From positions 1,050,001 through 1,082,000 of the forward strand of contig NC_015913.1 of assembly GCF_000270205.1 (NCBI RefSeq): a DNA stretch of 32,000 nucleotides, in the 5' to 3' direction. Numbering within the stretch: the stretch's first letter is position 1; every line of letters begins with the position of its first letter. A program made the translations under genes and the position numbers. The notes under the pieces were generated by a model that was not told where the DNA came from, did not search any database, and worked only from the letters and a program-made list of their open reading frames with translations. This DNA comes from Candidatus Arthromitus sp. SFB-mouse-Japan. GTDB taxonomy: Bacteria; Bacillota; Clostridia; Clostridiales; Clostridiaceae. Of this stretch, positions 10,998-28,235 are shown piece by piece.

Positions 10998-11011
10998 CTT
11001 AACACTACATC
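10983..11011 (-). terminator. Hairpin shared by the two convergent genes; terminator for the minus-strand ula-like operon
   Basis: GATGTAG (10991-10997) / CTACATC (11005-11011) with a 7-nt loop. A8 at 10983-10990 gives a U8 tract for the minus-strand transcript. Both stop codons lie in the stem arms. Confidence 0.5.
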
Positions 11012-11853: not shown

Positions 11854-11860
11854 TTAAAAA

Positions 11861-12559: not shown

Positions 12560-12571
12560 AATAACTCCTCC

Positions 12572-13606
12572 TTAATCCTCAACAATATAAACAACTGCCT
12601 CATTAGCGGTATGATTTGCACTCAAAATCAAATCTCTATTTCCTTCATTTATCAAATGTAAATTTGCAGGTTCCACACCTTTATCTATAACCTTTGTTAC
12701 AAACTTTCCATCAATATATTGAACATAAAATAACTCAGCATCTAAACGCCTAACTCCAGCAATAAATATCGGAACACCTCTCAAATTTCCAGACACAAGT
12801 GAGTGTGCAAAATCAATTTCATTTTCATAAGTATAAACTTTCCTATACTCTCCATCTATCATCTTATGGATATGAATTTTATTTTCATGAAAAGCCTCTA
12901 TCGTCATAATTTCTTTAATTCCATCATTATCTATGTCAATAAGAGAAACTTCACCGATCATTCCATTCATTACCTTCTCTATACTCCACTCATCTCCTAA
13001 ATCTATAGGTGGTTTAACCTTATAAAGCCCATCATCACAACCAAAATATCCACAAACACTACCATCTTCGTCATAATCTCTTGAATATCCATGATTTCTA
13101 AACATTCCATCTTTCAAAACTTGAACCTTCAATTCTCCTTCAGGAGTTTCTGGAAGTACCCCTACATAAATTTTCCCTGCACGGCTCCAATCTTCTTTAC
13201 TATCTTTTAACTCAGCTATAGTTGCAACTATGAAATAATTAACATTCCCAACTCTATAAATATCAAATCTATGAATATATGGAATCTGTAATATATCTTT
13301 ATACTCCCATTTTCCATTAACGACTTTACCCCAAACAACCTTAGCAAGAGATGGAGAAACCTTCATATAAAATTCTTGAATTGCAAGAAACTCCTTTTCC
13401 TTATTTGGTATAGGAATAAGTGACATACATCCTCCAGCCTTCTTCCAAAGTTCACAATCAAATTCAAAATCTTCTCCCTCAAAGCTCTCACAAATAACAT
13501 CAGGGTCTTCACTCGCAAAAATATAGTGATTAACATCGTCATAATACATGCTACTGACTGCGTAACACCTTTTTATATCATCTAACTTTTTCTTAGTAAT
13601 TTTCAT
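12572..13606 (-). CDS. Hypothetical cytoplasmic protein with FG-GAP/VCBS-like repeats (probable beta-propeller); function unknown
   Basis: 344 aa with RBS AAGGAG 9 nt upstream and no signal peptide. It has two DxDxDG-type loops (DYDEDGS, DIDNDGIKE) and repetitive beta-strand-like segments. It is embedded between the PTS genes and araD. Confidence 0.6.
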   Translation of the reverse strand: MKITKKKLDDIKRCYAVSSMYYDDVNHYIFASEDPDVICESFEGEDFEFDCELWKKAGGCMSLIPIPNKEKEFLAIQEFYMKVSPSLAKVVWGKVVNGKWEYKDILQIPYIHRFDIYRVGNVNYFIVATIAELKDSKEDWSRAGKIYVGVLPETPEGELKVQVLKDGMFRNHGYSRDYDEDGSVCGYFGCDDGLYKVKPPIDLGDEWSIEKVMNGMIGEVSLIDIDNDGIKEIMTIEAFHENKIHIHKMIDGEYRKVYTYENEIDFAHSLVSGNLRGVPIFIAGVRRLDAELFYVQYIDGKFVTKVIDKGVEPANLHLINEGNRDLILSANHTANEAVVYIVED

Positions 13607-13638
13607 CTTTTAATACTCCTTTACAAATTCTAAATATG

Positions 13639-13663
13639 AAAAAAGCTACCTCTTATGGTAGCC
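13639..13663 (-). terminator. Intra-operon rho-independent terminator after the EIIB gene
   Basis: Minus strand: GCTACC-ATAAGA-GGTAGC (13662-13645) followed by TTTTTT (13644-13639). It lies 5 nt after the EIIB stop and 33 nt before the next start codon. Confidence 0.6.
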
Positions 13664-13667
13664 TTAA

Positions 13668-13967
13668 TTACTTTATACCAACACCAAGTAAAGACTCTTC
13701 AATTTCCTTTACTGAAATGACATTCTTTAATCCAATAACTTTTGTTCCTTTTTTCTCAGCTTCTTGAAACATTGGAACAAAATTCTTAGAGCATAATACG
13801 ACCTCATATTGCGATGCTAATGATTTTCCTTCTGATATTGCACAGTGATAAATTGATTGAACATCTAAACCAATTTTTTTAATAACCTTTTCAACATTTA
13901 ACTTTATCATCATGCTAGTTCCTGCACCATTACCACAACAAACTAACAATTTTAATTTTCCTGCCAT
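13668..13967 (-). CDS. ulaB: PTS ascorbate-family EIIB (UlaB/SgaB type)
   Basis: MAGKLKLLVCCGNGAGTSMM contains the phospho-Cys motif. The ATG at 13967 lies 6 nt after GAGGTG. Confidence 0.85.
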   Translation of the reverse strand: MAGKLKLLVCCGNGAGTSMMIKLNVEKVIKKIGLDVQSIYHCAISEGKSLASQYEVVLCSKNFVPMFQEAEKKGTKVIGLKNVISVKEIEESLLGVGIK

Positions 13968-13981
13968 AATATACACCTCAA

Positions 13982-15439
13982 TTATTTATTATTAGTCTTT
14001 TCTTTGTAAGCATCCCAGTCTTCAACGATTAAAAAGTAAGTATCAGGTCTTTTACGATATTGAATCTGTGGAATAGCAATTAAAATTAAAATAACTATGG
14101 CAATTCCTGCATAACCTGTAAACCTCATAATAACTGTAAATATTGGCCATACAGTAGCCCAGTCAAACATTCCTATATATCCTCCAAATCCTGCAAGTTC
14201 TACCCAACCTGCAATAAGAGCTGATCCAAACACTTGTATAAGTCCAGATATAAATGGGAATAACATCGCTGCTCTTATTCCTCCACGATTATCTGCATAA
14301 ACAGCTATTACTGCATTATCAAAGAACAAAGGAACAAATCCTGCAATAATAAGTGTTGGAGATTTAATAATTAAAAGAATTAATATAGCTAAAAATTGTC
14401 CTAATGCTCCCATAATAAATCCAACAGTTACAGCATTAGAAGAACCAAATCCAAATACTGCAGCACAATCTATTCCTGGAACAGATCCTGGTAAGAATGA
14501 ATTTGAAATTCCTTGAAAGGATTGAGTAAGTTCTGTTACAAATGTCCTAACCCCTAACTGTAATATGGATAAATAAACTGCAAAATTTAATGAAGTCGTT
14601 AATATATAAAAGAAAAAGTTATCATTTGCAGTAAGGAATTGTGATTGAATCAAATAATCTTTTCCTAAAACTACAAGTATAATTCCAAAGAATATGAACA
14701 TTAAACATGAAGTCGCAACTATATTTTCATTAAATATTGATAAGAATCCCGGGAATTTTATATCATCCAATTTCTTACCATCAGCTCTCTTAAGTTTTTC
14801 TGCAAATTTTGAGAAAAGAGCTATACCAAACATTTGTTGATGAGCAATACAAAATCCTCCGCCATCAGTTAATTCTTGAGTAATCTCAACCGTTAAATTT
14901 GAACCAACAGCCCAATAAAGTCCCAATATAATTCCCATTATTACAAGTATCGAAACATCATTTAAAAATGGGAAACAGAATAATATAAGCCAAAAAGTAG
15001 TTGATGCCTGTTGTACTTGAACGTGACCAGTTGTAAAAACAGCTCTCATCTTTGTATACTTTTTAAACTTAACTAACAAAAGATTCATTACAAAGGCAAT
15101 AAGTAATAATATCAAAACATTAGAAAAAGTTTTACCAAAAGCCGAAGACAAAGCCTCATTTACAGCATTTTGTCCAAAATAAGGATCAATAACAGCCGCA
15201 CTTAAATTAAACCTCTCTTTAAGTCCAACAAGTATCGGCCCAAAGTTATTTACAAGTCCTGATGATCCAACCGATAAAATCATATATCCAACGGTTGCTT
15301 TTATGAAACCAGAAAATGCATCATATATAGGTTTTTTCAACAACAAATAACCAATTAACACCACAAAACCTATAAGGTAAGCTGGCTTAGTTAAAATATT
15401 GTTTGCAAAAAATTCCCAAATACCAATTAAAAATTCCAT
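13982..15439 (-). CDS. ulaA: PTS ascorbate-family EIIC (UlaA/SgaT type)
   Basis: About 485-aa polytopic permease with UlaA-like sequence throughout. I prefer the ATG at 15439 (7 nt after AGGAG). The track start at 15445 is 1 nt from the RBS. Confidence 0.88.
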   Translation of the reverse strand: MEFLIGIWEFFANNILTKPAYLIGFVVLIGYLLLKKPIYDAFSGFIKATVGYMILSVGSSGLVNNFGPILVGLKERFNLSAAVIDPYFGQNAVNEALSSAFGKTFSNVLILLLIAFVMNLLLVKFKKYTKMRAVFTTGHVQVQQASTTFWLILFCFPFLNDVSILVIMGIILGLYWAVGSNLTVEITQELTDGGGFCIAHQQMFGIALFSKFAEKLKRADGKKLDDIKFPGFLSIFNENIVATSCLMFIFFGIILVVLGKDYLIQSQFLTANDNFFFYILTTSLNFAVYLSILQLGVRTFVTELTQSFQGISNSFLPGSVPGIDCAAVFGFGSSNAVTVGFIMGALGQFLAILILLIIKSPTLIIAGFVPLFFDNAVIAVYADNRGGIRAAMLFPFISGLIQVFGSALIAGWVELAGFGGYIGMFDWATVWPIFTVIMRFTGYAGIAIVILILIAIPQIQYRKRPDTYFLIVEDWDAYKEKTNNK

Positions 15440-15453
15440 AATCATACTCCTAT

Positions 15454-15906
15454 TTATTTGTATTTATCTACAATCTTTCGGAACATATGTTCATTATCAG
15501 CCTCCAAAAGATCAGATATTAATTCCTCATTCTCCAATATCTCCATTAAATCCTGCAAATTCTTGACATGTTCATCATTATCTCGTATGGAGAGTGAAAA
15601 GAATAAACGAGCTTGCTTTTCATTATCATTAGGATCAAACATTACTGGTTTTTTTACTTTCATGAAAGCTATAGTTGTTTCTTTGCACCAATCCTCATTC
15701 ACATTTGAATGTGGCATAGCTATATCCTTCATAAGAACAATATAAGGTTCATATTCCTCTACACTTCTAATCACATCATCTACGTAATAATCGTTTACAA
15801 TCCCATTTTTAAGAAGTGGAACATAGCTACTCTTAATTGCATCTCTCCAATCATCGAAACTTTCATGAAATGAATAATAAGATTTATCTAATATTTTTTT
15901 TAGCAC
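15454..15906 (-). CDS. ulaC: PTS EIIA, mannitol/fructose/ascorbate (UlaC/SgaA) type
   Basis: 150 aa with the active-site region IAMPHS. GTG start at 15906 lies 7 nt after AGGAGA. It sits between ulaG and the EIIC gene. Confidence 0.85.
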   Translation of the reverse strand: MLKKILDKSYYSFHESFDDWRDAIKSSYVPLLKNGIVNDYYVDDVIRSVEEYEPYIVLMKDIAMPHSNVNEDWCKETTIAFMKVKKPVMFDPNDNEKQARLFFSLSIRDNDEHVKNLQDLMEILENEELISDLLEADNEHMFRKIVDKYK

Positions 15907-15917
15907 AAAATCATCTC

Positions 15918-16976
15918 CTATAAAATTGAACGGAACGGAACATTAGGTTCATCTGTGAAACAATCCTCAAAACCTCTTCTATAGTGATATTGACGTTTAT
16001 CTTTGTCATTTGGATAAATGAATTTTCCTCCAACATCCCAGATAAACGGCTTAAACTTATATTGAAGTACATCTTTCTTATATTCATACAACATATTAAC
16101 TTCCTGAGGATCAGCTTTAAAATTAGTCCAAACATCATAATGGAAAGGAATTACAACTTTACATTGAAGTGCCTCAGCCATACGTAATATATCAATTGAT
16201 GTCATCTTATCCTGATTTCCAATAGGATTCTCACCAAAAGATCCAAGAGCAACATCTATTTCATGGTCTTTACCATGTTTTGCATAATAAACAGAATAAT
16301 GAGAATCTCCACTATGGTATATGCTTCCAGCATCAGTCTTTATTAAATAGTTAACAGCTTTCTCATCCATATCATTTGGACAAACTCCTCTAATATCTTC
16401 ATCAGCTGTAACCAAACAAGTTCTATCAAAACTATCCAAAACTACAATTTCAACTTCATTTACCTTTACTACATCACCAGGCTTAACTTCAATACATCTT
16501 TCAGCAGGTACTCCATAAGAAATCCATTTTTCTATACATTTCTTTGGTCCAATAAACGGTACTTCTTTATTAACATTTTTCATAACCGCAGCTGCATAAA
16601 AAGGATCTATATGATCGTTATGGTAATGTGTAGATAAAACTGCATCAACATTTTTAACCGCAAATGGATCAAAAACTATCGGAGCTGCTCTTAAATTTGG
16701 TTGAGTCGCTCTTCCCCCTGTCATATTTCTCATTTGATGATACTTATCCATCTCTTTGACTTTCTTAGTTCTCTTTCCATTTCCAAACCATAAGTCAATT
16801 GAAATGTTAGTATTTTGGTGCGTTTTAATCCAAATACCAGTACATCCAATCCACCACATTGCAAATATTCCTTTTTCTACTACTTCATCCTCTATATCTT
16901 CATTGAGCCAAGTTCACCACTCAGGAAACGCTCCAAGTATCCAAGACTCTCTAGTTATTTCATCTATCTTACTCAA
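15918..16976 (-). pseudogene. ulaG: L-ascorbate-6-phosphate lactonase (UlaG, metallo-beta-lactamase fold) interrupted by an in-frame TGA at codon 21
   Basis: TTG at 16976 follows AGGAG (16983-16987). Translation gives [48 protein letters not shown].., colinear with E. coli UlaG ([30 protein letters not shown]...FAMWWLGCTGIWLK). The TGA at 16914-16916 replaces the conserved Gly codon. The remaining 313 codons, including HYHNDHID, are intact. Confidence 0.8.
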
Positions 16977-17111
16977 TTTAAACAACTCCTAAAATTAAAT
17001 TAAAATATGTTTTTAATTTACTACTGTACAATAAATCGTTTCAATAACTTTTAGGAGCATTTTAATTTTTTATATGATCATTTTAAGTTAATCAATTAAT
17101 AACAAATGGTG

Positions 17112-17117
17112 TATAAT
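17112..17117 (+). promoter_or_regulatory. Consensus -10 hexamer (TATAAT) of the probable regulator-gene promoter
   Basis: AAATGGTGTATAATAT is on the plus strand about 70 nt upstream of the DeoR-family gene. The -35 is poor (TTAATC/TAATCA). Confidence 0.35.
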
Positions 17118-17186
17118 ATTTAACAAACAATAATTATAATCTAGTTATAATAAAATTAATTCTTCAATTTATATTTAATTTTAAAA

Positions 17187-17945
17187 GTGGTGAGTATTTT
17201 GAAAATATCCAAGAAAATAATCAATACTCGTAGATGCAAAATACTAATGGAAATCCAAACTTGCGACAAAGTATTTGTGAATAATCTTTCTGAAAAGCTC
17301 AAGGTATCCCCCCTAACAATTAGGAGAGACCTACAAGTGCTTGAAGACAATGGCTTTGTTGAAAGATTTTATGGAGGTGCAAAATTCAAAGAAGAAAAAT
17401 TATGTCTCAGAGAAAAAGAGGATTATATAGATTCAATTGCAAAAATAGCTTCAAGGTATATTGAAGATAATGATGTTATTTTTGTAAACTCTAGCAAAAT
17501 AACTTTAAAAATGCTCGAGTATATCCATAGCAAAAACGTAAATGTAATAACTAATAATGCAAATGCAGTACTTATAAACAACCCAAACATATCAGTTATT
17601 TTAACTGGCGGTGAATTAAACATAAACAAAAAATCCCTAACAGGTGAATTTGCAATTAAAACATTAAATAATATTGTTGCCACTAAATGCTTTCTTGGAT
17701 GCAGTGGAATCACTACAAATGGATTTACTTCAATTATTCCACAAGAAGCATATATTAATGAATGTATGCTTAAAAGATGTGTTGGTAATGTATTTATTTT
17801 AGCCGAAACTTCAAAGATTGGGCGTGAATATAACTTTTTAAGTGCTCCAATCAATATGATAAACACTTTAATAACTGACGCATCTCCATCTGATGAGCTT
17901 ATAAATATTCAGAAAAAAGGAATCAAAATAATTTATTCACATTAA
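17187..17945 (+). CDS. DeoR-family transcriptional regulator (UlaR-like), divergent from the ula-like operon
   Basis: N-terminal HTH (..LSEKLKVSPLTIRRDLQVLEDNGFVERFYGGA) plus a DeoR C-terminal sugar-phosphate sensor domain. The start could be GTG 17187/17190 or TTG 17199. Confidence 0.85.
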   Translation: MVSILKISKKIINTRRCKILMEIQTCDKVFVNNLSEKLKVSPLTIRRDLQVLEDNGFVERFYGGAKFKEEKLCLREKEDYIDSIAKIASRYIEDNDVIFVNSSKITLKMLEYIHSKNVNVITNNANAVLINNPNISVILTGGELNINKKSLTGEFAIKTLNNIVATKCFLGCSGITTNGFTSIIPQEAYINECMLKRCVGNVFILAETSKIGREYNFLSAPINMINTLITDASPSDELINIQKKGIKIIYSH

Positions 17946-17996: not shown

Positions 17997-18263
17997 TTAT
18001 TTACTCCATCTCTTAACTTTAACTTTTCTGGTTTTATAACTTTCAAATTTTTGAGCAAACTTCTTAAATCCACCTAAAAAGTTTTTAGCAAACTTCTTAT
18101 TCCTATCATCCATAATAAAAGATTTTGTTTTTCTAAAAATCTCTTGAGGGGAAAACTTATTATATCCTATAGTATGAACAACATTTCTCCTTGGTTTCCT
18201 CTTACTCCTACTTTCAATCATTTGTCTTAAACTAGCTATATCAAATTTAAAATTCATGACCAT
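17997..18263 (-). CDS. Small, very basic hypothetical protein (88 aa, Lys/Arg-rich)
   Basis: The ORF starts 18 nt downstream of cutC, with GGGAGA upstream. An ATG at 18257 has better spacing to that RBS. I recognise no family. Confidence 0.45.
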   Translation of the reverse strand: MVMNFKFDIASLRQMIESRSKRKPRRNVVHTIGYNKFSPQEIFRKTKSFIMDDRNKKFAKNFLGGFKKFAQKFESYKTRKVKVKRWSK

Positions 18264-19557: not shown

Positions 19558-19995
19558 ATGATGTTAGATTACAAAGTTAAATGTATAATAAAGGATTGTG
19601 TTCCAGTATTAAGAGACCGTGGAGTTGAATTAACAGAAAATTTCTATAATTTAATGTTTACAAATAATCCAGAGGTTAGATCTCTTTTTGATGATGATAG
19701 ACAGAAAAGTGGGGAACAAGCCAAAGCTCTAGCATCTTCGCTTCTTGCAGTTGCTCAGAATATAGATAATTTAGAAAAAATTCTCCCAACTGTTAAAAAA
19801 ATTGGCATGTCTCACGTTAAAGCAAATGTTAAACCTGAACATTATCCAATAGTTGGAAAAAATCTTTTGCTAGCAATTAAAGAAACTTTAGGTGATACGG
19901 CTACTGATGAGCTTATTAATGCGTTTTCAGAAGTTTACAAATATATTTCAAAGATATTTATAGATATAGAAAAAGAACTATATAATACTATTTAA
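19558..19995 (+). CDS. Single-domain bacterial haemoglobin (Vitreoscilla Hb / flavohaemoglobin globin-domain type)
   Basis: 145 aa, colinear with Vitreoscilla Hb as I recall it: ..VPVL...GV.LT..FY..MF..NPEVR.LFD..RQ.SGEQ.KALA...LA.AQNI.NL..ILP.VKKI...H......HYPIVG..LL.AIKE.LGD.ATDE.. Tyr-B10, Gln-E7 and His-F8 are all present. Confidence 0.9.
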   Translation: MMLDYKVKCIIKDCVPVLRDRGVELTENFYNLMFTNNPEVRSLFDDDRQKSGEQAKALASSLLAVAQNIDNLEKILPTVKKIGMSHVKANVKPEHYPIVGKNLLLAIKETLGDTATDELINAFSEVYKYISKIFIDIEKELYNTI

Positions 19996-20001
19996 ACGCT
20001 C

Positions 20002-20048
20002 AAAAGGAACAATAAACTGCTATTTTATTGTTCCTTTTGATATTTTTT
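20002..20048 (+). terminator. Strong rho-independent terminator after the globin gene
   Basis: Perfect 15-bp stem AAAAGGAACAATAAA (20002-20016) / TTTATTGTTCCTTTT (20024-20038) with a 7-nt loop, followed by GATATTTTTT. Confidence 0.8.
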
Positions 20049-20145
20049 AAGATAATCAGAGTTGTATTATAAATCTTTTTGTTATAAAATCCAAAGTAAA
20101 AGTAAACAATTTATTTAAATATATTTCTAAAACCTGAGGGGGATA

Positions 20146-21195
20146 ATGATGAATCAAAACGCTAAAAAAATTATCGAAAACCATATTCCAATTTTTAAAA
20201 ATAAAGGAATGGAATTCTCAAATAATTTCTATAAAATTTTATTTGAATATAATAATAACGCTAAATTACTTTTTAAAGAAAATAGCTTAAAAAATGATGA
20301 GCAAATAAAAGATACGTCGTTTCTTTTTGTATCCATCTTTGAAAACGTAAACAACATTGATAAAATTATTCCTATTATAAAAGAATTTGTAAATAAACAT
20401 ATGAACATAAATTCTAATATTAAAATAGACTCTTGTCAGATTATTAAAGAAGCTTTCTTATCATCTTTTAAGAAAACATTTAACGAAATTGCTACAAATG
20501 AACTTATAACTGCATATTCCGATATATATGACCTAATTTCTAGAGAATTATGTGATAAGAAAAATAATTCGGGATACAAAAATGAACATGAATTCATTCA
20601 AGACCCTTGGGCAAGAATTACTACAAGAAATGGACTTGCTGGAGATGAGGTTATATCTTCACTTCAAAAGTGTATAAGACGTGGTCTTGTTGAAGATGCT
20701 TGTAAATTTGCATATGAAATGTACATCACATCCCCACAAATGGAAGATAAACTTTGGAGAAGACTTGTTACTATAACTGTTGAGGATATTGGTATGGGTG
20801 ATGTTAATGCCCCAATATTAATAAACACATTAAACGAAATGAGAAAAAATTACGCATATGCTGACGGAGACAGACCAATATTTTTCATACATGCAATAAG
20901 ATATTTATGTGCTTGTCAGAAAGATCGTTCAAGTGATCTACTTAAAAATATAGTTATAAAAAGTTTTGCTATGGGATTTATTCCTGAGATTCCAGACTTT
21001 GCTTTAGATAAACACACTATAAGAGGTGCAAAAATGGGACGTGATTCATTCCACTTCTTAAACGAAGCAAGTAAAGTAATTCCCCAACTTCCAATAGACA
21101 ATGACTATAAACAACGTTATGAAGAAATACTAAAGACCTATAATCCTGATAATGTTTGTAAATCAGCATTTAAATACAATCCTTGGCAAGAATAA
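20146..21195 (+). CDS. Globin domain fused to an MgsA/RarA C-terminal-like helical domain (no AAA+ ATPase module)
   Basis: 349 aa. Residues 1 to about 137 are a diverged paralogue of the upstream globin, retaining Tyr-B10 (NNFYKILF), Gln-E7 (NDEQIKD) and His-F8 (FVNKHMN). Residues from about 150 to 349 align by eye with the C-terminal half of E. coli RarA: ISSLQKCIRRG..DACKF ~ ISALHKSVRGS..DAALYW; WRRLVTITVEDIGMGDV ~ ARRCLAIASEDVGNADP; AIRYLCACQKDRS ~ AIVYLACAPKSNA. There is no Walker A/B motif. RBS GAGGGGG precedes the start. Confidence 0.75.
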   Translation: MMNQNAKKIIENHIPIFKNKGMEFSNNFYKILFEYNNNAKLLFKENSLKNDEQIKDTSFLFVSIFENVNNIDKIIPIIKEFVNKHMNINSNIKIDSCQIIKEAFLSSFKKTFNEIATNELITAYSDIYDLISRELCDKKNNSGYKNEHEFIQDPWARITTRNGLAGDEVISSLQKCIRRGLVEDACKFAYEMYITSPQMEDKLWRRLVTITVEDIGMGDVNAPILINTLNEMRKNYAYADGDRPIFFIHAIRYLCACQKDRSSDLLKNIVIKSFAMGFIPEIPDFALDKHTIRGAKMGRDSFHFLNEASKVIPQLPIDNDYKQRYEEILKTYNPDNVCKSAFKYNPWQE

Positions 21196-21216
21196 TAGAA
21201 CGAGAGGTTATAAAAA

Positions 21217-22512
21217 ATGAAATCAAGTTCAATGTTTGAAAAATTAGATAAAGCACTATCTCCTATAAGTACAAAAATAGCTAATCAACGTCATTTAAGA
21301 GCCGTTTCAACGGGTATGATGTTAACATTACCTTTAATTGTAATTGGTTCACTGTTTCTTATAATAGCGAATCCTCCGGTAAACCCTGATATAATTGATC
21401 CTAATACTACAAATATATTTTTAAAATTCCTTCTTTTATGGAAATCATTTGCTGTACAAAATTATTCTCTAATCACTACGCCATACGATATGACAATGGG
21501 ACTTTTAGGACTTGCATCAGCATTCACAATTTCATACGCTTTGGCTAATGAATACAAAATGAAAAGCATAATGTCTGGTCTTATATCAATGTGTGTGTAC
21601 TTTATGGTATCTGCAACAGTAATTGACGGAAATATATCAACAGCATTTTTAGGATCTGATGGATTATTTGTAGCCATAATTATTAGTCTTTTATCAGTCG
21701 AAATAACTAGATTAATAGAAAGAAAAGGATTCCAGATTAAAATGCCAGATAGCGTTCCCCCTGCAGTAACATCATTTATAAATTCAATGTTCCCACTACT
21801 CGCAAACATTTTAATAATCTATGGCATAAATGTAATAATAAAAGTAAATTTTGATATGTCAATACCTCAAGCCATAATGTCTATATTAAACCCTGCTCTT
21901 TCTGTTGTTGACAATTTATGGGGATTCCTATTAATTATGACATTTGGTAATTTATTATGGATTATTGGCGTTAATGGTACATCAATAATATTCCCAATCG
22001 TATTCACTCTTGGGATAACTAATACTGGATTAAATGCCGATTTAATTGCATCTGGTCAAGCTCCAAATTTTTTAATGAACTTACAAATGTTTAGGGTCAC
22101 AGTACTTGGTGGAGCTGGGAATACATTAGGACTTGTAATTTTAATGTTATGGAGTAAATCTGTTCATTTAAAATCCCTAGGTAAACTCTCTATTATTCCA
22201 GGAATATGCGGAATCAATGAACCTATAATTTTTGGTGGACCAATCGTATTTAATGCAATATTAGCAATACCATTTTTATTAACTCCAATAATAACGGTAA
22301 GTATGACATATTTTGCACAGAAAATTGGATTAATAGGACTTGGATATTTAGTTGATCCATCATTTACTCCTTTCTTTGCTCAAGCTTATTTATCATCATT
22401 AGACTTTAGAAATGTTATATTTTCATTCTTTTTAGTTCTTGTAAGTCTTGTCATATATTATCCCTTTTTCAAAGTTTACGAGAAAAACACACTAATCAAG
22501 GAAGCTAAATAA
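21217..22512 (+). CDS. Orphan PTS lactose/cellobiose-family EIIC permease
   Basis: 431-aa polytopic protein. The N-terminus (LSPISTKIANQRHLRAVSTGMMLTLPLIVIGS) is the EIIC-family signature. It starts 21 nt after the globin-fusion gene. No EIIA or EIIB gene is adjacent. Confidence 0.85.
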   Translation: MKSSSMFEKLDKALSPISTKIANQRHLRAVSTGMMLTLPLIVIGSLFLIIANPPVNPDIIDPNTTNIFLKFLLLWKSFAVQNYSLITTPYDMTMGLLGLASAFTISYALANEYKMKSIMSGLISMCVYFMVSATVIDGNISTAFLGSDGLFVAIIISLLSVEITRLIERKGFQIKMPDSVPPAVTSFINSMFPLLANILIIYGINVIIKVNFDMSIPQAIMSILNPALSVVDNLWGFLLIMTFGNLLWIIGVNGTSIIFPIVFTLGITNTGLNADLIASGQAPNFLMNLQMFRVTVLGGAGNTLGLVILMLWSKSVHLKSLGKLSIIPGICGINEPIIFGGPIVFNAILAIPFLLTPIITVSMTYFAQKIGLIGLGYLVDPSFTPFFAQAYLSSLDFRNVIFSFFLVLVSLVIYYPFFKVYEKNTLIKEAK

Positions 22513-22520
22513 AAACAATT

Positions 22521-22549
22521 AAAGGTATAGCAGTTTTAGCTATACCTTT
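22521..22549. terminator. Bidirectional rho-independent terminator
   Basis: AAAGGTATAGC (22521-22531) / GCTATACCTTT (22539-22549) with a 7-nt loop, between convergent genes. Confidence 0.7.
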
Positions 22550-22554
22550 AATAA

Positions 22555-23550
22555 TTAATTTATGAAACTAATATCTTGATCTTTTGGAATCTCTATATAT
22601 TTAATTTTTGTATTATTAAGTTCTTTTTTAAGATCAATACAAGAAATTCTTCTATTAGTTGTTAAAGAGAAATAATATTTCAGGCTTTCAGAGCACATTA
22701 TATCTATACTTTGTGTGAACTCAAAATCTGATCCCTTATCTGTTTGAAGCCCAACTATTCCTTCTGCCATATAAACTGTTGAAAACATATTAAACATTCT
22801 TGTTACTCCATCAAGCTCATCATTCCCCTTAGGAGAAAAATTTTTAGTAAGAGCAACTCTTATAAAACGATCAGTTGAAGCATATCCTCCTGGGAATCTT
22901 AACCCCCACACACCAAAAGCCTTAAACTCTTTTCCACATATAGTATCTTGTTTTACTCCAAGTGGTGATTGCCCCAAATAATTCCTAATATTTTGTTCAT
23001 GCCATTCATAGTTAGGACTATTTGTCATAACACCTATAGTATTTCTATGTACAGTAACTCCTCCTTCATTAGGTTCAACAATTATCGCCTCACCTGTAGA
23101 ATCAAAAAATATAAAATGAACTCTTATTTCATTCCCAAATACCTTCTCACTACTAAAGTTTATTGCTTTAGCCTCTCTCTCTACCTCATCTAAAGTTTTA
23201 CAAGTAGACAACATATAGGTAACTATAAATGACGGATTAACACTAACACTATAATTATCATTTGTATCATAACAAGCAAAACCTGGATAATTTAGAAGTG
23301 CACCCATAAGTCCATGTTCATTGATTCCATCAACAAGAAATGGTGTATCTAGACCGTTTATATTCATTCCTGTTACTACATATTCTGATTTCACCATACT
23401 CTTAGTTTCAATAAGTGTACTAAACTCATAATTCCTTGGAATAACAACGAATGAATTACTATCTAAATTCCCAAAATAATCATAAGTTCTTCCGAGCAAA
23501 TGTTTCCCGTCAATTGTCTGCCATGAAAAACTACTACAACCAATATTCAT
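22555..23550 (-). CDS. Choloylglycine hydrolase-family Ntn hydrolase (penicillin V acylase / bile salt hydrolase-like)
   Basis: It is colinear with Lysinibacillus penicillin V acylase as I recall it (MLG|CSSLSIRT.. versus MNIG|CSSFSWQT..). The catalytic set is conserved: nucleophile Cys after a short propeptide, GRTYDY (Arg/Asp), IGVMTNSP..EWH (Asn) and DRFIRVA (Arg). The start is ATG 23550 or TTG 23562. Confidence 0.85.
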   Translation of the reverse strand: MNIGCSSFSWQTIDGKHLLGRTYDYFGNLDSNSFVVIPRNYEFSTLIETKSMVKSEYVVTGMNINGLDTPFLVDGINEHGLMGALLNYPGFACYDTNDNYSVSVNPSFIVTYMLSTCKTLDEVEREAKAINFSSEKVFGNEIRVHFIFFDSTGEAIIVEPNEGGVTVHRNTIGVMTNSPNYEWHEQNIRNYLGQSPLGVKQDTICGKEFKAFGVWGLRFPGGYASTDRFIRVALTKNFSPKGNDELDGVTRMFNMFSTVYMAEGIVGLQTDKGSDFEFTQSIDIMCSESLKYYFSLTTNRRISCIDLKKELNNTKIKYIEIPKDQDISFIN

Positions 23551-23711
23551 ATCGATTACCAACCTTCAAATTTTATAATAATTTATTATACTCTTAATTT
23601 TAAGAATTAGCCAAAACACTCAAAAATTTTTTAGAGTATTTAATTCAAATATTGCAAACAATAATTATGTTTAATGATTTTTTACATTGCAAATTATCAG
23701 GAGTGAAATTA

Positions 23712-25322
23712 ATGAAAAATATAGAAAATAATAATTTATTTCCAATAAGTTTATTAATAGATCGAATCATTTCTAAATTTAACCCCACAAATTGCAACAA
23801 CTTACATATAGTTTATTCTCTTGTATTTGATAATCAAGATCCTATTTATTTGGAAGTTAAAGATGGATTTTGTAAACTTTTAGATCATATCCCTTCACAC
23901 ATAAATACGACAATCAAAACAACTCACGCAATTTGGCAAAAAATTTGCTTAAATGAAGCATCACTACAACACGCATTAGAAGAAAATCTAGTTAAATGTG
24001 ATGGAGAAATCAAAAATTATATGTTGCTATGCAACTTACTCAATAAAGATTTACCTGATGATATCAAAAACTCTAATGCATTCTCAATTACTAAAACAAC
24101 AACTGAAGAAATCAGTACAGAAAATAAAGAATTGCTACCACACCCAAATACCATAACGAAAATTGAAACTCCTTCAAATATCATAACTATAACAGAAACT
24201 CAAAATCCTGAAGTCAAAATAAATGGATCTACCCCTATAGATAACACAGCAATAGCAAACTTAGATAATTTAAAAAATAAGAACGTGGAAATACAAGATA
24301 AGAAAGTTCACAAACGTCAAAAAAAGAAGAAAGAAGAAAAGAAATGCAAGAAAATTATTGTCAAAGAAAATAAAAAACCTCAAAAAATAAAAGCTCCTAA
24401 ACCACCAAAAGTTAAAAATAAATATAAAAATTTTATTTCAGCTAATTCCCTATTAAGTGTAATGGTAGCCAACTTCAACCCTACACAATCAAATAATCTA
24501 AATCTATCATATAAATTTATATTTGAAAATTCAAAACCAATTTATCTTGAAATTAAAAATAAAACCGCAAAATTACGTCATCGATTTAATGAGGAAGTAA
24601 ACACTACAATAACATCAACTTATAAAACATGGTATGAAATTATTTTTAAGGATTTAAAAATTGAAACTGCATTATTAGATGGAAAAATTAAATGCGATGG
24701 GGAAGTCAAAAATTTAAAAATTTTACGTGAATTATTTAAAACTAATAGTGAAAACAAACAACTAAAAACAACAAATTTAAATCTCAATCCTATTATTTGG
24801 TTTGTACTCGCTATAATACCATGGTTATTTTACTGGATAGGTATAGATACTTTTAATTCACTAATTACTTCTACATTTGCAATACTATACACTACAATTT
24901 TTGTAACATTTATAAAACCCTCAAAGTTTAGAAAAATTACAAAACTTGAAGCATTAACATTAATTGTCTTTCCATTTTACAATCTATTTAATGTATTAAA
25001 TCCAGTAGTATTTAATGAAATAGTCTCATCTTTTTTTCTTAACATAATACTAATTTTGATGTTCTTTATGAGTTCAGGATGTGAAATATCAGCTATGTCA
25101 GAATATTCTGAAATTTCATACAATTCTACAATTTCTGAAACACTGTTATTTAAGATTATAAATAAAAATTTAACAATATTATGGTCAATTATATTTACAA
25201 TTAGATTTATTTTATCCTTGATTTTAGAAACACCTCTATATAATGTATCTTATATATTTATTATATTAGGAATAATTATTTCATGGATATATTTAAAATT
25301 AAAACTTAATATTAAGGACTAA
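23712..25322 (+). CDS. Membrane protein with two N-terminal SCP2 (sterol-carrier-protein-2-like) lipid-binding domains, a Lys-rich linker and a C-terminal ~6-TM domain
   Basis: The ATG at 23712 lies 7 nt after AGGAGTG; the track's TTG at 23652 lacks an RBS. Two homologous modules are present: ..NLHIVYSLVFDNQDPIYLEVKDG...NTTIKTTHAIWQKI...ASLQHALEENLVKCDGEIKNYMLLCNLL and ..NLNLSYKFIFENSKPIYLEIKNK...NTTITSTYKTWYEI...KIETALLDGKIKCDGEVKNLKILRELF. Both fit the SCP2 pattern (..Y.f......yl.l.......t.t.s...w..i..g.l....A...Gk.k..Gd......l..lf). The C-terminal 180 aa are hydrophobic helices. Confidence 0.6.
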   Translation: MKNIENNNLFPISLLIDRIISKFNPTNCNNLHIVYSLVFDNQDPIYLEVKDGFCKLLDHIPSHINTTIKTTHAIWQKICLNEASLQHALEENLVKCDGEIKNYMLLCNLLNKDLPDDIKNSNAFSITKTTTEEISTENKELLPHPNTITKIETPSNIITITETQNPEVKINGSTPIDNTAIANLDNLKNKNVEIQDKKVHKRQKKKKEEKKCKKIIVKENKKPQKIKAPKPPKVKNKYKNFISANSLLSVMVANFNPTQSNNLNLSYKFIFENSKPIYLEIKNKTAKLRHRFNEEVNTTITSTYKTWYEIIFKDLKIETALLDGKIKCDGEVKNLKILRELFKTNSENKQLKTTNLNLNPIIWFVLAIIPWLFYWIGIDTFNSLITSTFAILYTTIFVTFIKPSKFRKITKLEALTLIVFPFYNLFNVLNPVVFNEIVSSFFLNIILILMFFMSSGCEISAMSEYSEISYNSTISETLLFKIINKNLTILWSIIFTIRFILSLILETPLYNVSYIFIILGIIISWIYLKLKLNIKD

Positions 25323-25511: not shown

Positions 25512-26903
25512 ATGGAAAATTCATTTCTGAGTGGATTTTTAATGGTAAGCAATCCTTTAACGCTTACATTTTTAGTTTCATTAATACTATTGTTTGGCAT
25601 CATGGTATTCTTGAAGAAAAAACATATAAGCTTTTCAATCAGAACAATAATAGGGACAATTATCGGTATTTTATTGGGTGTGGTAATCCAGTTAGTATCT
25701 AGAACTCCTGAGAATCCACTAGATATTACTTGGATTAATGAAACAACAAAATGGTATTCACTATTTGGTAATGGATTTATCGATTTGATAAGAATGATTG
25801 TTATTCCTCTAATTGTTATATCAATTATTCATGTTATTATTTCAATTAAAAATTCATCAAATATAAAAAACCTCACATCAAAAACCATTTTCGGATTTAT
25901 TGTAAATGTTCTTATAGCATCCATTATAGGTATAGTAGTTGCCCAATTGTTCAAATTAGGAATATCAGGAAATGTAGTTTCTTCATCTGTAAAGATAAAA
26001 GAAGTTAAAAATTTCGTTGATATACTAAGAAATTTAATTCCAAAAAATCCAATTGAAGCAATGGTTAATACAAATATAATTGCTGTTGTAATTTTTTCTG
26101 CATTTGTTGGGATTGCAACCAAAAAGATGGCTTCAATTTATAAAACTCAAATCAGTACTTTTGTTAATTTAATTGATGCTCTTCATAAAATAATAGTTAG
26201 TATTGCAATGTCAATAATAAGTCTAATACCTTACGCAGTTATTCCACTAATGGCGAATTCAATTGCACAACGAGGTTTAAAATCAATTTTAGAAGTTTTG
26301 ACATTTATAGTAGCTATGTATGTTGCAATGGCCATAATGTTTGTGGTTCATTTGATAGCCTTATCGATATTTGGATTAAATCCGATTATCTATTTAAAAA
26401 AATCTATCGCTCCTCTGTTCCTTGCATTCACTTCAAGATCTAGCCTAGGAACGCTACCTGTTGCCGTTGAATCTTTAACAGATTCTATGGGTGCTACTGA
26501 CTCAACTTCCGCCTTTGTTATGGGGCTTGGTTCTACAGCAGGACAGGCTGGTTGTGCCGGAGTGTTTGGTGCAATGGTTATCATTACTATAGCAAATATG
26601 AGTTCTACACCAATGACATTTTCATTTTATTTAATGTCGGTTTTAGTTGTAACTATAAGCTCATTTGGTATTGCAGGTATCCCTGGTGGTGGACATACTG
26701 TTGCCTCATCAGTTTTATCTGGTACGGGATTAGCTCCATATTTTGAACTTGTTGGACCAATATTAGCTGTTGATCCTATAATAGATATGGGGAGAACACT
26801 TTTAAATATAAACGGTGCTATGACCATATCACTAATTGTTGATAAATCATTAAATCAACTAGATATAGAAAAGTTTAACAATGAGAGTCTAAAAATAAAT
26901 TAA
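25512..26903 (+). CDS. tcyP: Dicarboxylate/amino-acid:cation symporter (DAACS) family, TcyP-like (L-cystine type)
   Basis: 463 aa, colinear with B. subtilis TcyP/YhcL as I recall it (..GLNPI.YLKK..P....AFTSRSS.G..P......). RBS AAAGGGTTGGTG precedes the start. Confidence 0.7.
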   Translation: MENSFLSGFLMVSNPLTLTFLVSLILLFGIMVFLKKKHISFSIRTIIGTIIGILLGVVIQLVSRTPENPLDITWINETTKWYSLFGNGFIDLIRMIVIPLIVISIIHVIISIKNSSNIKNLTSKTIFGFIVNVLIASIIGIVVAQLFKLGISGNVVSSSVKIKEVKNFVDILRNLIPKNPIEAMVNTNIIAVVIFSAFVGIATKKMASIYKTQISTFVNLIDALHKIIVSIAMSIISLIPYAVIPLMANSIAQRGLKSILEVLTFIVAMYVAMAIMFVVHLIALSIFGLNPIIYLKKSIAPLFLAFTSRSSLGTLPVAVESLTDSMGATDSTSAFVMGLGSTAGQAGCAGVFGAMVIITIANMSSTPMTFSFYLMSVLVVTISSFGIAGIPGGGHTVASSVLSGTGLAPYFELVGPILAVDPIIDMGRTLLNINGAMTISLIVDKSLNQLDIEKFNNESLKIN

Positions 26904-27004: not shown

Positions 27005-27766
27005 TTAATACTCTTTCAAAATTCCTTTTAGCTTTGCTAATACCCTTTTTTCAATACGAGAAACCTGTACCTGACTAATTCCAAGTACAGATGCTACTTG
27101 AATTTGTGTCTTATCTTTAAAATATCTAAGCATTATAATTTGCCTACTTTTTTCATCAAGTTTACTTATCATTTCTTTTAACACGAGCCTATTTAAAATA
27201 ATTGAATCATCAGAAACTTTTTCTTCAATTTTATCGATCAAAAGAATTGGTGATCCGTCGTCTTGATGTACAGTATCGTATAAATACTGCGTACTTGAAC
27301 AAGAATCTATAGCCAAAATTATATCATCAACACTTAATTTAGTATATTCAGCCAATTCATAAACCGTTGGTTCTCTATTCAATTCTTTTGTAAGCTCATC
27401 ACGCTTAAACATTATTTTTCTTGATATCCCTTTTACATTTCTACTAATTTTAACGATTCCATCATCTCTCAAAAACCTTTTTATTTCACCCAAAATCATA
27501 GGAACCGCATAAGTAGAGAATTTAACATTATAATCGCTATTAAAATTTTTAATAGCTTTAATAAGTCCAAGTGCTCCAACTTGGTAAATATCATCATAAT
27601 CATATCCCCTACCTAAAAATTTTTTACTTAGTGATGCAACTAATGGTAAATTAATTTCCAAGAGCAAATCTTCAGCTTTTTTATCTCCATCTTTAACTCT
27701 CTTTAAGAGCTCATCATTTTCATAATGACGTAAAGTATTACTGGAGACTGCATTTTCATGTGCCAT
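27005..27766 (-). CDS. sigF: Sporulation sigma factor SigF (SpoIIAC)
   Basis: 253 aa with sigma-70 regions 2-4 (DLLLEINLPLV, YDDIYQVGALGLIKAIKNF, STYAVPMILGEIKRFLRD, QVASVLGISQVQVSRIEK). It is the third gene after spoIIAA and spoIIAB. Confidence 0.95.
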   Translation of the reverse strand: MAHENAVSSNTLRHYENDELLKRVKDGDKKAEDLLLEINLPLVASLSKKFLGRGYDYDDIYQVGALGLIKAIKNFNSDYNVKFSTYAVPMILGEIKRFLRDDGIVKISRNVKGISRKIMFKRDELTKELNREPTVYELAEYTKLSVDDIILAIDSCSSTQYLYDTVHQDDGSPILLIDKIEEKVSDDSIILNRLVLKEMISKLDEKSRQIIMLRYFKDKTQIQVASVLGISQVQVSRIEKRVLAKLKGILKEY

Positions 27767-27778
27767 TATACACTCACC

Positions 27779-28225: not shown

Positions 28226-28235
28226 ACAAATCCCC

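What the first reader, a model, noticed from the sequence alone, without database searches (positions are those of the whole stretch)
20146..21195. Globin domain fused to an MgsA/RarA C-terminal-like domain with no AAA+ ATPase module
The first ~137 residues are a diverged copy of the adjacent VHb-type globin and keep the heme-pocket triad: Tyr-B10 in NNFYKILF, Gln-E7 in NDEQIKD and His-F8 in FVNKHMN. The remaining ~200 residues align by eye, block for block, with the helical C-terminal half of the replication-associated AAA+ protein RarA/MgsA. That region is normally found only behind a Walker A/B ATPase core, and no P-loop is present here.

A heme sensor or carrier seems to have taken the place of the ATPase module. 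I know of no characterised globin-coupled protein with this output domain. The known outputs are MCP, GGDEF, kinase, STAS and similar. The MgsA C-terminal domain mediates oligomerisation and partner binding in RarA. A gas- or redox-responsive assembly or scaffold function is therefore conceivable, but this is pure inference.
Basis: partly seen in the sequence, partly recalled or inferred. Interest (0 to 1): 0.8.

Follow-up and report, generated by a model that had tools for sequence, protein, structure and literature searches.

The report
Decaying globin inserted into PTS-linked gene
In mouse segmented filamentous bacteria, a copy of the neighbouring haemoglobin gene was spliced into the front of a small ATPase-less RarA-tail-like gene that travels with a sugar-transporter gene; the fusion is real, but its haem-binding side is evolving freely, so it is probably not a gas sensor.

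Summary
The ORF (20146-21195, +) is real. It is identical to WP_005805807.1 / SFBM_1012 of Candidatus Arthromitus sp. SFB-mouse, which NCBI already names "MgsA/globin-like domain-containing protein". Both domain calls hold: an N-terminal VHb/Hmp-type globin fold and a C-terminal RarA/MgsA C-terminal-like domain, with no P-loop.

The evolutionary reading is wrong. The C-terminal half belongs to a large, highly conserved family of stand-alone ~204-aa ATPase-less proteins. These sit next to a lactose/cellobiose-type PTS EIIC gene in 31 of 33 Firmicutes/Fusobacteria loci. SFB-rat and a related Clostridiales MAG have the same synteny but an unfused gene. In the SFB-mouse lineage a diverged copy of the adjacent globin sits in frame after codon ~4 of that gene.

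The fusion is not an artefact, since at least 8 independent assemblies carry it. The globin part looks degenerate:
- It keeps 24 of 83 family-conserved positions.
- Leu-E11, Tyr-G5 and Glu-H23 are lost.
- His-F8 is Tyr in the sister lineage.
- dN/dS is 0.29 overall and 0.91 in the F helix, against 0.03 for the C-terminal half.
- GC is 22%.

A haem-sensor role is not excluded (about 0.2). Interest is modest.

The parts
19558..19995 (+). G1: free single-domain VHb/Hmp-type globin (145 aa), the probable donor of the inserted globin segment
   Evidence: Pfam Globin E=8e-16 and NCBIfam Hmp N-terminus E=4.5e-50. It is 86% identical to the SFB-rat globin. It keeps 73 of 83 family-conserved columns. 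dN/dS is 0.04.
20000..20040 (+). Intrinsic terminator hairpin plus T-run that ends the G1 transcript
   Evidence: 17-bp stem followed by TATTTTTT. The same element is present between the globin and the unfused gene in SFB-rat.
20041..20148 (+). Promoter/5'UTR/RBS region (GAGGGGG at 20136-20142) inherited from the stand-alone gene, including the first ATG (20146)
   Evidence: It aligns with the SFB-rat intergenic region upstream of the unfused 207-aa gene, continuously through the RBS and start codon.
20149..20160 (+). Probable true start and first codons (MNQN), derived from the stand-alone gene and not from the globin
   Evidence: SFB-rat has ATGAATCAAAAT (MNQN-NKEFIQDPW) and the window has ATGAATCAAAAC, 11 of 12 nt identical. 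The RBS spacing of 6 nt favours this ATG.
20161..20556 (+). Inserted globin-derived domain (residues ~6-137); the His-F8 codon CAT is at 20398-20400
   Evidence: It retains 24 of 83 conserved globin columns. GC is 22% and FYMINK 56%. dN/dS is 0.29 overall, 0.91 in F/FG (residues 71-99), 0.02 in the E helix and 0.12 in the G helix. All 12 allelic amino-acid polymorphisms lie in the globin half (residues 11-133).
20557..20592 (+). Linker (residues 138-149, CDKKNNSGYKNEHE). Its end (NEHE-F) corresponds to codons ~5-8 (NKEF) of the ancestral stand-alone gene.
   Evidence: pLDDT is below 50 for residues 137-148. See the alignment to the SFB-rat, L007 and Romboutsia N-termini.
20593..21195 (+). RarA/MgsA C-terminal-like domain (residues 150-349 plus stop), the body of the ancestral stand-alone ATPase-less gene
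   Evidence: It is 92% identical to the SFB-rat 207-aa protein and 72-87% identical to 204-aa proteins of Clostridia, Fusobacteria, Brevinema and Bacilli. pLDDT is 95-99. The family profile hits RarA structures at E=1.5e-12. dN/dS is 0.03.
21217..22512 (+). PTS EIIC (lactose/cellobiose family), the conserved operon partner, 21 nt downstream
   Evidence: Pfam PTS_EIIC E=1e-48 and TIGR00410 above its cut-off. It is adjacent to the stand-alone homologue in 31 of 33 Firmicutes/Fusobacteria loci. There is no terminator in between.
22518..22552 (.). Bidirectional terminator that closes the fusion-EIIC operon
   Evidence: 14-bp stem called on both strands.

Best explanation
The gene is the SFB-mouse-lineage version of a widespread stand-alone, ATPase-less protein, here called M. 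M is homologous to the helical C-terminal half of RarA/MgsA and forms a two-gene operon with a lactose/cellobiose-type PTS EIIC permease.

After the split from SFB-rat, a copy of the adjacent single-domain globin gene (about residue 6 to the H helix) became joined in frame after codon ~4 of M. M's own promoter, RBS and start were kept. The likely route is inferred, not shown: a tandem duplication spanning the globin body, the intergenic region and M codons 1-4, followed by a ~170-nt deletion of the stop codon, the intergenic region and the duplicated start.

The M half is under very strong purifying selection. It most likely still does the ancestral, still unknown, PTS-sugar-linked job, probably as an oligomer like RarA.

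The globin half is tethered by a disordered ~12-residue linker at the position where RarA carries its ATPase. It is no longer maintained as a canonical haem globin. Its proximal (F-helix) side evolves almost neutrally and has lost the His-Tyr-Glu network, and its composition has drifted to AT-rich codons. Its E and G helices stay conserved.

My reading is that it is a haem-free or only weakly and non-canonically haem-binding helical appendage. It is kept folded because the whole protein must be translated through it, and it may have been exapted as a structural or interaction surface. I do not read it as an O2/NO sensor.

Sub-confidences:
- origin and architecture: 0.95
- M retains the ancestral function: 0.85
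- the globin part is not a canonical haem sensor: 0.65
For: Identity and reality of the fusion:
- The protein is identical to WP_005805807.1.
- The fused allele is found in the window, L046, L049-L052, L045 (long-read) and the divergent L001/L002 lineage.

Ancestral state:
- SFB-rat (L048) and L007 have the same DeoR/CutC/DUF454/globin/.../EIIC synteny, but with an unfused 207- or 204-aa gene.
- The upstream intergenic region, RBS and MNQN codons are homologous to SFB-rat's M gene.

Stand-alone family:
- 1043 proteins score E<=1e-3; every listed one apart from the two fused clusters is stand-alone. 622 representatives score E<=1e-10.
- EIIC is adjacent in 31 of 33 loci and a divergent RpiR in 28.
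- No other sensor fusions were found.

Origin of the globin:
- Its best matches among 122 free globins are the G1 copies of its own lineage.
- On an NJ tree it is a long-branch sister of the SFB G1 clade.

Decay of the globin:
- It keeps 24 (window) or 20 (L001) of 83 conserved columns, against 73 for G1.
- L57T (E11), Y95C (G5), E137K (H23) and P96Q are changed in both alleles.
- H85Y (CAT to TAT) occurs in both L001-lineage alleles.

Selection:
- dN/dS is 0.285 for the globin half, 0.039 for G1 and 0.029 for M (Fisher p=1e-5 and 2e-6).
- The F/FG segment has dN/dS 0.91.
- 12 of 12 allelic polymorphisms fall in the globin half (p=4e-5), including G21V at a 100%-invariant glycine.
- GC is 22% against 29-33%, and FYMINK is 56% against ~36%.

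Structure:
- Two independent domains are joined by a low-confidence linker, with a pLDDT dip at residues 90-95.
Against: - The globin half is not neutral overall: dN/dS is 0.29, below 1 with p=1e-4, and 0.18 outside F/FG.
- All four key distal and core residues (Phe-B9, Tyr-B10, Phe-CD1, Gln-E7) survive in both lineages although only ~29% of conserved positions do.
- His-F8 is present in every SFB-mouse allele seen.
- Tyr can ligate ferric haem in other proteins (my own knowledge: Hb M variants, catalase, haemophores). The His-to-Tyr change therefore does not prove haem loss.
- AF2 still predicts a complete 3-on-3 globin fold.
- The regional dN/dS values rest on small counts (3.5 synonymous and 14.5 non-synonymous changes in F/FG) and on only two lineages.
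- No experiment or transcript data were available.
- The function of M itself is unknown.
Confidence: 0.6

Rival explanations
1. It is a working haem-based sensor or regulator. The globin domain binds haem (His-ligated in SFB-mouse, Tyr-ligated in the sister lineage). Its ligand or redox state controls the M domain, and through it the co-transcribed EIIC sugar permease. This would adapt sugar uptake to O2/NO at the epithelial surface where SFB attaches.
For: - The distal pocket (Phe-B9, Tyr-B10, Phe-CD1, Gln-E7) is retained in both lineages, and His-F8 in all SFB-mouse alleles.
- The E helix is under strong constraint, with dN/dS 0.02.
- Overall dN/dS is significantly below 1.
- The globin fold is predicted.
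- The N-terminal placement on a flexible linker resembles sensor-transmitter proteins.
- The operon has lost the RpiR regulator that controls it elsewhere, so a new regulatory input is conceivable.
Against: - The F helix/FG loop evolves at dN/dS 0.91, and the F8 ligand itself differs between the only two lineages.
- Leu-E11, Tyr-G5 and Glu-H23, all 100% invariant in 122 free globins, are lost.
- An invariant glycine is polymorphic (G21V).
- The composition shows extreme AT drift.
- The globin belongs to the F (VHb/Hmp) lineage, not the sensor lineage.
- M is not a known signalling output.
Confidence: 0.2
2. The globin half is a purely neutral passenger on its way to loss. It has no function at all and persists only because the start codon of M now lies upstream of it.
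For: - The ancestral ATG of M has been replaced (AAT at 20581-20583), and there is no in-frame ATG, GTG or TTG near the junction. Frame and translatability through the globin are therefore enforced regardless of function.
- AT drift, neutral F/FG evolution and polymorphisms confined to this half all fit.
Against: - dN/dS of 0.02-0.12 in the E and G helices and 0.18 outside F/FG is much lower than expected for a functionless spacer.
- No in-frame deletions have accumulated between two lineages with dS ~0.37.
Confidence: 0.15
3. It is an artefactual fusion caused by an assembly chimera or a sequencing frameshift that joined a globin gene to the downstream gene.
For: Orthologous loci in SFB-rat and L007 have separate genes. 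One assembly (L045) shows the gene broken into pieces.
Against: - The same 348/349-aa ORF occurs in complete SFB-mouse genomes (87 contigs for P0392) and in many independent short- and long-read assemblies.
- A lineage with 11% amino-acid divergence keeps the frame.
- The fused genomes also keep the separate globin G1.
- In L045 every gene is fragmented, which points to long-read indel errors.
Confidence: 0.01
4. One reading: a full RarA/MgsA ATPase lost its AAA+ module and a globin took its place.
For: The globin sits N-terminal to the RarA-C-like region, where RarA has its ATPase.
Against: - The immediate orthologues are stand-alone 204-207-aa proteins with no ATPase.
- The stand-alone family is large, old and only distantly related to RarA proper: 20-23% identity, and E=8e-5 for the single sequence.
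- Its genomic context is PTS and hydrolase operons, not replication.
Confidence: 0.01

Closest known systems
Stand-alone MgsA_C-only proteins (e.g. SFB-rat WP_014094885.1, 207 aa; 204-aa 'hypothetical / AAA family ATPase' proteins of Romboutsia, Clostridium perfringens, Paraclostridium, Cetobacterium); uncharacterised
   Same: The C-terminal 200 residues are 72-92% identical. The operon partner (lac/cellobiose-type EIIC immediately downstream) is the same. In SFB-rat and L007 the flanking genes are the same too.
   Different: It carries a ~140-residue globin-derived N-terminal insertion. The divergent RpiR regulator and the IIA/IIB genes seen in most other lineages are missing, as in all SFB/L007 loci.
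RarA/MgsA/Mgs1/WRNIP1 (AAA+ clamp-loader-clade ATPase, tetrameric; PMC5389604; PDB 3pvs, 2r9g, 3bge, 8g28)
   Same: The helical region after the ATPase core is homologous: profile E=1.5e-12 to 1.9e-7, and Foldseek probability 1.0.
   Different: There is no AAA+ core and no Walker motif. Identity is only ~20%. The context is a PTS operon, not genome maintenance. Oligomerisation and SSB binding were not tested.
Single-domain F-family bacterial globins (Vitreoscilla VHb, Campylobacter Cgb, the C. perfringens-type globin, and the adjacent G1) and the globin domain of flavohaemoglobin Hmp
   Same: It has the 3-on-3 fold and shares Phe-B9, Tyr-B10, Phe-CD1, Gln-E7 and, in this allele, His-F8. Its closest relatives are the G1 copies of the same lineage.
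   Different: Identity is 31%. It keeps 24 of 83 conserved positions. Leu-E11, Tyr-G5 and Glu-H23 are lost, there is a 2-residue FG insertion, and the H helix is shortened or rewritten. The F helix evolves neutrally. It is fused to a non-reductase partner.
Globin-coupled sensors (S family: HemAT, the diguanylate-cyclase, kinase and STAS types; PMC7475203, PMC1457004)
   Same: An N-terminal globin domain is followed by a linker and a C-terminal non-globin domain.
   Different: The globin is of the F lineage, not the sensor lineage. The partner is not a known transmitter. Conservation of the haem site fails. The fusion is confined to one narrow clade.
Other unusual globin chimeras, e.g. the haemoglobin-like protein fused to a Roadblock/LC7 domain (PDB 3wfw)
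   Same: It is a precedent for a 3-on-3 bacterial globin fused to a small non-enzymatic domain. It appears as a weak hit (E=0.22).
   Different: The partner domain is unrelated. That protein is a crystallised globin, while haem binding here is unknown.

Membership tests
Globin superfamily, F (VHb/Hmp-type) lineage | Significant sequence similarity to VHb/Hmp globin domains | tested here: met
   NCBIfam Hmp N-terminus E=8e-18, VHb E=2e-10 and G1 E=1e-28. Pfam Globin scores 19.9 bits, just below the gathering score of 22.
Globin superfamily, F (VHb/Hmp-type) lineage | 3-on-3 alpha-helical globin fold | tested here: met
   AF2 pLDDT is 79.5, with TM 0.78-0.81 to 2wy4, 7dih and 6wk3.
Globin superfamily, F (VHb/Hmp-type) lineage | Proximal His-F8 conserved as the haem ligand | tested here: inconclusive
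   His85 is present in the window and in all SFB-mouse alleles. Tyr is present in both alleles of the sister fused lineage.
Globin superfamily, F (VHb/Hmp-type) lineage | Family-invariant pocket residues (Leu-E11, Tyr-G5, Glu-H23, and others) | tested here: not met
   L57T, Y95C and E137K are changed, and only 24 of 83 columns that are >=90% conserved are retained, against 73 of 83 for G1.
Globin superfamily, F (VHb/Hmp-type) lineage | Binds haem | not testable with these tools
   This needs recombinant protein and UV-vis or pyridine haemochrome assays.
Globin-coupled sensors | Sensor (S) lineage globin domain | tested here: not met
   All significant hits are F-lineage (VHb, Hmp, Cgb). There is no Protoglobin (PF11563) hit, unlike the weak one for G1.
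Globin-coupled sensors | C-terminal signalling output domain (MCP, GGDEF, kinase, STAS...) | tested here: not met
   The only C-terminal match is MgsA_C. See PMC7475203 for the list of known outputs.
Globin-coupled sensors | Ligand-dependent regulation of the output | not testable with these tools
   Biochemistry is required.
RarA/MgsA AAA+ ATPases | AAA+ core with Walker A/B | tested here: not met
   No motif was found by regex, and there is no AAA Pfam hit.
RarA/MgsA AAA+ ATPases | MgsA_C-type helical C-terminal region | tested here: met
   The family profile hits 2r9g at E=1.5e-12 and 3pvs at 1.9e-7. Foldseek agrees. 34 of 40 relatives hit PF12002.
RarA/MgsA AAA+ ATPases | Tetramer formation, SSB or DNA interaction | not testable with these tools
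   RarA functions as a tetramer (PMC5389604). This was not assessed here.
Stand-alone MgsA_C-only, EIIC-linked family (uncharacterised) | High identity over the ~200-aa body | tested here: met
   Identity is 72-92%.
Stand-alone MgsA_C-only, EIIC-linked family (uncharacterised) | Immediately adjacent lac/cellobiose-type PTS EIIC gene | tested here: met
   EIIC lies 21 nt downstream in the window, and is adjacent in 31 of 33 Firmicutes/Fusobacteria loci.
Stand-alone MgsA_C-only, EIIC-linked family (uncharacterised) | Single-domain ~204-aa protein | tested here: not met
   The protein is 348/349 aa because of the globin insertion. Fused forms make up only two 90%-identity clusters out of 5.8 billion.
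Flavohaemoglobin (Hmp) | C-terminal FAD/NAD(P)H reductase module | tested here: not met
   The Hmp model matches only positions 1-138 of 399.

The most novel reading that the evidence does not exclude
The globin-derived domain still binds haem, with His ligation in SFB-mouse and Tyr ligation in the sister lineage. It acts as a lineage-specific O2/NO/haem-responsive switch on a RarA-tail-like accessory protein of a PTS sugar permease. This would replace the lost RpiR control and tune nutrient uptake of SFB-mouse to the oxygenated, NO-rich epithelial surface. It would be the first F-lineage globin recruited as a sensor for a transporter-associated, non-enzymatic output, caught soon after its birth.
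Probability: 0.15. Interest if true: 0.7.

Novelty: new variant of a known kind. Interest (0 to 1): 0.3.

Why it matters
The fusion itself is a narrow, young event in one SFB clade, and GenBank already labels the protein "MgsA/globin-like domain-containing protein". It does not reveal a new class of gas sensor.

Its value is twofold:
1. It is a clean, datable example of domain accretion in a reduced-genome gut symbiont that matters to immunology. Both the before state (SFB-rat, L007) and the after state (SFB-mouse, L001 lineage) are available. The new domain shows a mosaic of neutral and constrained segments, which makes it a useful case for studying how new domains are kept or lost. It is also one of the gene-content differences between the host-specific mouse and rat SFB.
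2. It draws attention to the parent family. This is a highly conserved ATPase-less RarA-tail homologue (72-87% identity across phyla) that is almost always paired with an RpiR-controlled lac/cellobiose-type EIIC and has no glycosidase in the operon. Its function is unknown and is probably the more interesting open question.

Tried and rejected
- **Joint alignments.** Joint MAFFT alignments of the fused protein, free globins and M proteins misplaced the globins onto the C-terminal half. I dropped them and ran two separate structure jobs.
- **Globin-half search.** A homologue search with the globin half alone returned only a 91-aa fragment. I considered it as evidence of pseudogenisation. I rejected that because every gene on that long-read contig is fragmented.
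- **Metagenome scan.** The JGI metagenome scan for further fused alleles found nothing.
- **Longer M-family proteins.** I checked the 299-392-aa representatives for other sensor fusions. They are tandem doubles or probable mis-calls.
- **Literature.** Searches for SFB globins, locus tags, PF12002/MgsA_C and related terms found nothing about this protein or the stand-alone family. Page et al. 2011 (MgsA structure) is not held.
- **Internal start.** I looked for an in-frame ATG, GTG or TTG near the junction that could yield M alone. There is none.
- **Foreign origin of the globin.** This was rejected because the closest relatives are the G1 copies of the same lineage. The margin in bit score is small.
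Full report
**What is there**

The ORF at 20146-21195 (+) encodes 349 aa. No Walker A or B motif exists.

The N-terminal ~137 residues are a globin:
- They match the globin part of flavohaemoglobin (NCBIfam E=8e-18) and Vitreoscilla haemoglobin (E=2e-10).
- They match the adjacent free globin G1 (19558-19995) at 31% identity, E=1e-28.
- Pfam Globin is just below its gathering score.
- AlphaFold2 gives a 3-on-3 globin fold (pLDDT 70-89), with TM 0.78-0.81 to Cgb, thermoglobin and RmaNOD.

Residues 150-349 are RarA C-terminal-like:
- They are modelled at pLDDT 95-99.
- They match RarA/MgsA C-terminal fragments by Foldseek (2r9g, 3bge, 8g28, 3pvs).
- A family profile hits the same structures at E=1.5e-12 to 1.9e-7.
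- 34 of 40 relatives hit PF12002.

**Identity**

The protein is identical to WP_005805807.1/EGX28537.1. NCBI names it [quoted passage not shown]. The 348-aa form is SFBM_1012 of SFB-mouse-Japan.

The window is therefore mouse segmented filamentous bacterium (SFB), which fits its ~28% GC. The architecture is already labelled in public databases. I found no paper that discusses it.

**The C-terminal half is not an orphaned piece of an ATPase**

- A search of 5.8 billion protein clusters found only two fused clusters. It found more than 1000 stand-alone ~204-aa proteins at 72-87% identity. They occur in Romboutsia, Clostridium perfringens, Paraclostridium, Cetobacterium, Brevinema and Bacilli.
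- The exhaustive representative search found 622 representatives at E<=1e-10, mostly ~200 aa. RarA proper is not among the best 150.
- Longer members are tandem doubles, not sensor fusions.
- In 31 of 33 Firmicutes/Fusobacteria loci this gene (M) abuts a lactose/cellobiose-type PTS EIIC. In 28 a divergent RpiR regulator precedes it.
- In Chloroflexi, M ends hydrolase operons.
- In the window, EIIC follows 21 nt downstream with no terminator between. Terminators flank the pair at 20000-20040 and 22518-22552.

**How the fusion arose**

- SFB-rat-Yit (L048) and a Clostridiales MAG (L007) share the window's synteny: DeoR, CutC, DUF454, globin, M, EIIC. They have one globin and an unfused M of 207 or 204 aa.
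- SFB-rat M starts MNQN-NKEFIQDPWAR. The window protein reads M-MNQN-[globin]-K-NEHEFIQDPWAR.
- The intergenic region, the terminator, the GGGGGATA RBS and the first four codons are homologous to the region upstream of SFB-rat M.
- The globin segment is therefore an in-frame insertion after codon ~4 of M. It is not a stop-codon read-through, and it does not replace an ATPase.
- The original ATG of M is now AAT, and no alternative start exists nearby.
- The inserted globin's best matches among 122 free globins are the G1 copies of its own lineage. It branches as a very long sister of the SFB G1 clade. This indicates a local duplication followed by strong acceleration.
- Inferred route: a tandem duplication from G1 codon ~6 to M codon ~4, then deletion of the stop codon, the intergenic region and the duplicated start. 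This would explain all the junctions.

**It is not an artefact**

The fused ORF recurs in complete SFB-mouse genomes and in many independent assemblies: L046, L049-L052 and the long-read L045. It also occurs in a second lineage (L001/L002, P0408) that is 11% divergent and keeps the frame.

**State of the globin half**

Conserved positions:
- Of 83 columns that are >=90% conserved in 122 free globins, G1 keeps 73. The fused domain keeps 24 (window) or 20 (L001 lineage).
- Retained: Phe-B9, Tyr-B10, Phe-CD1, Gln-E7.
- Lost in both: Leu-E11 (Thr), Tyr-G5 (Cys), Glu-H23 (Lys), Pro96.
- His-F8 (CAT) is Tyr (TAT) in both L001-lineage alleles.

Selection, window against L001:

| Region | dN/dS |
|---|---|
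| G1 (free globin) | 0.039 |
| Fused globin half, overall | 0.285 |
| M half | 0.029 |
| Globin F helix/FG loop | 0.91 |
| Globin E helix | 0.02 |
| Globin G helix | 0.12 |

- The globin half differs from G1 and from M at Fisher p~1e-5 to 2e-6. It is still below neutrality (p=1e-4).
- All 12 amino-acid polymorphisms among the sequenced alleles lie in the globin half (p=4e-5). One is G21V at a 100%-invariant glycine.
- The domain's GC is 22% against 29-33% for its neighbours. FYMINK residues make up 56% against ~36%. This is the signature of relaxed constraint under AT pressure.
- The model's confidence dips at residues 90-95, and the linker (137-148) is disordered.

**Interpretation**

- The M half continues the ancestral, still unknown, PTS-linked role.
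- The globin half is best read as a partly constrained helical appendage whose canonical proximal haem site is no longer maintained. The pattern of a free F helix with conserved E and G helices resembles an apoglobin.
- A working haem sensor is not excluded. The distal pocket is intact, His is present in all mouse alleles, and Tyr can ligate ferric haem (my own knowledge). I put this at about 0.2.

**Comparison with known families**

- It is not a globin-coupled sensor in the defined sense. The globin is F-lineage, not S-lineage, and the partner is not a known transmitter (PMC7475203, PMC1457004).
- It is not a RarA, because it has no AAA+ core. RarA is a tetrameric AAA+ ATPase (PMC5389604).
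- It is a member of the stand-alone M family that carries an N-terminal insertion.

**Verdict**

- Novelty: a new variant of a known kind (a chimeric F-globin), already annotated but uncharacterised.
- Interest is about 0.3.
- The M-EIIC family may be the better target for follow-up.

Noticed in passing
window 20593-22512; loci L003-L034, L044: The stand-alone ~204-aa RarA-tail-like family is 72-87% identical across Clostridia, Fusobacteria (including a Cetobacterium somerae plasmid copy, L021), Brevinema and Bacilli. It almost always occurs as an RpiR <-> M-EIIC (lac/cellobiose type) cassette with no glycosidase in the operon. It is often near host-glycan genes (sialidase, M60 peptidase, GxGYxYP). 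It is uncharacterised and looks horizontally mobile.
   Followed up: partly
L035-L043 (e.g. L041 2493-6564, L037 4487-6567): In Anaerolineae/Chloroflexi the 50-56%-identical homologue has no EIIC neighbour. It sits at the end of operons encoding an Amidohydro_1 amidohydrolase, an inosine-uridine nucleoside hydrolase and an M20 peptidase. This is a second, independent metabolic context.
   Followed up: partly
window 22555-23562 (-) and 25512-26903 (+): A choloylglycine/bile-salt-hydrolase-family (CBAH) gene and an SDF dicarboxylate-symporter gene are present in SFB-mouse and the L001 lineage. Both are absent from the syntenic site in SFB-rat (L048). This neighbourhood is a hotspot of differences between host-specific SFB lineages.
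   Followed up: no
window 20136-20151: The RBS GAGGGGG is 3 nt from the first ATG (20146) but 6 nt from the second (20149). The 348-aa product starting MNQN, as annotated in SFB-mouse-Japan, is probably the real one.
   Followed up: partly
window 17997-18263 (-): An 86-88-aa very basic ORF between the DeoR and CutC genes is conserved in all SFB loci (L001, L047-L051). It has no Pfam match.
   Followed up: no
window 11005-17945: There is an L-ascorbate (ula)-like PTS operon on the minus strand: a UlaG-like metallo-beta-lactamase, EIIA_2, EIIC-GAT, IIB, a 344-aa unknown protein, a class II aldolase and an AP_endonuc_2 isomerase. A divergent DeoR/UlaR-like regulator lies at 17187-17945. The DeoR gene therefore probably serves that operon, not the globin/M genes.
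   Followed up: no
window 23652-25322 (+): A 556-aa protein has two SCP2/alkyl-sulfatase-C lipid-binding-type domains, a lysine-rich low-complexity middle and C-terminal transmembrane segments. It is conserved in the SFB and L007 loci.
   Followed up: no
L045 (ENA ERZ1948694 contig_3642, 672 kb): In this long-read SFB assembly nearly every gene is split by frameshifts. The protein fragments it contributes to public protein collections (e.g. the 91-aa P0121) can mimic pseudogenes.
   Followed up: yes
window 27005-28580 (-): This is a sporulation sigma-F operon (SpoIIAA-like STAS, SpoIIAB-like anti-sigma kinase, sigma-70 family factor). It is consistent with the spore-forming lifestyle of SFB.
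   Followed up: no
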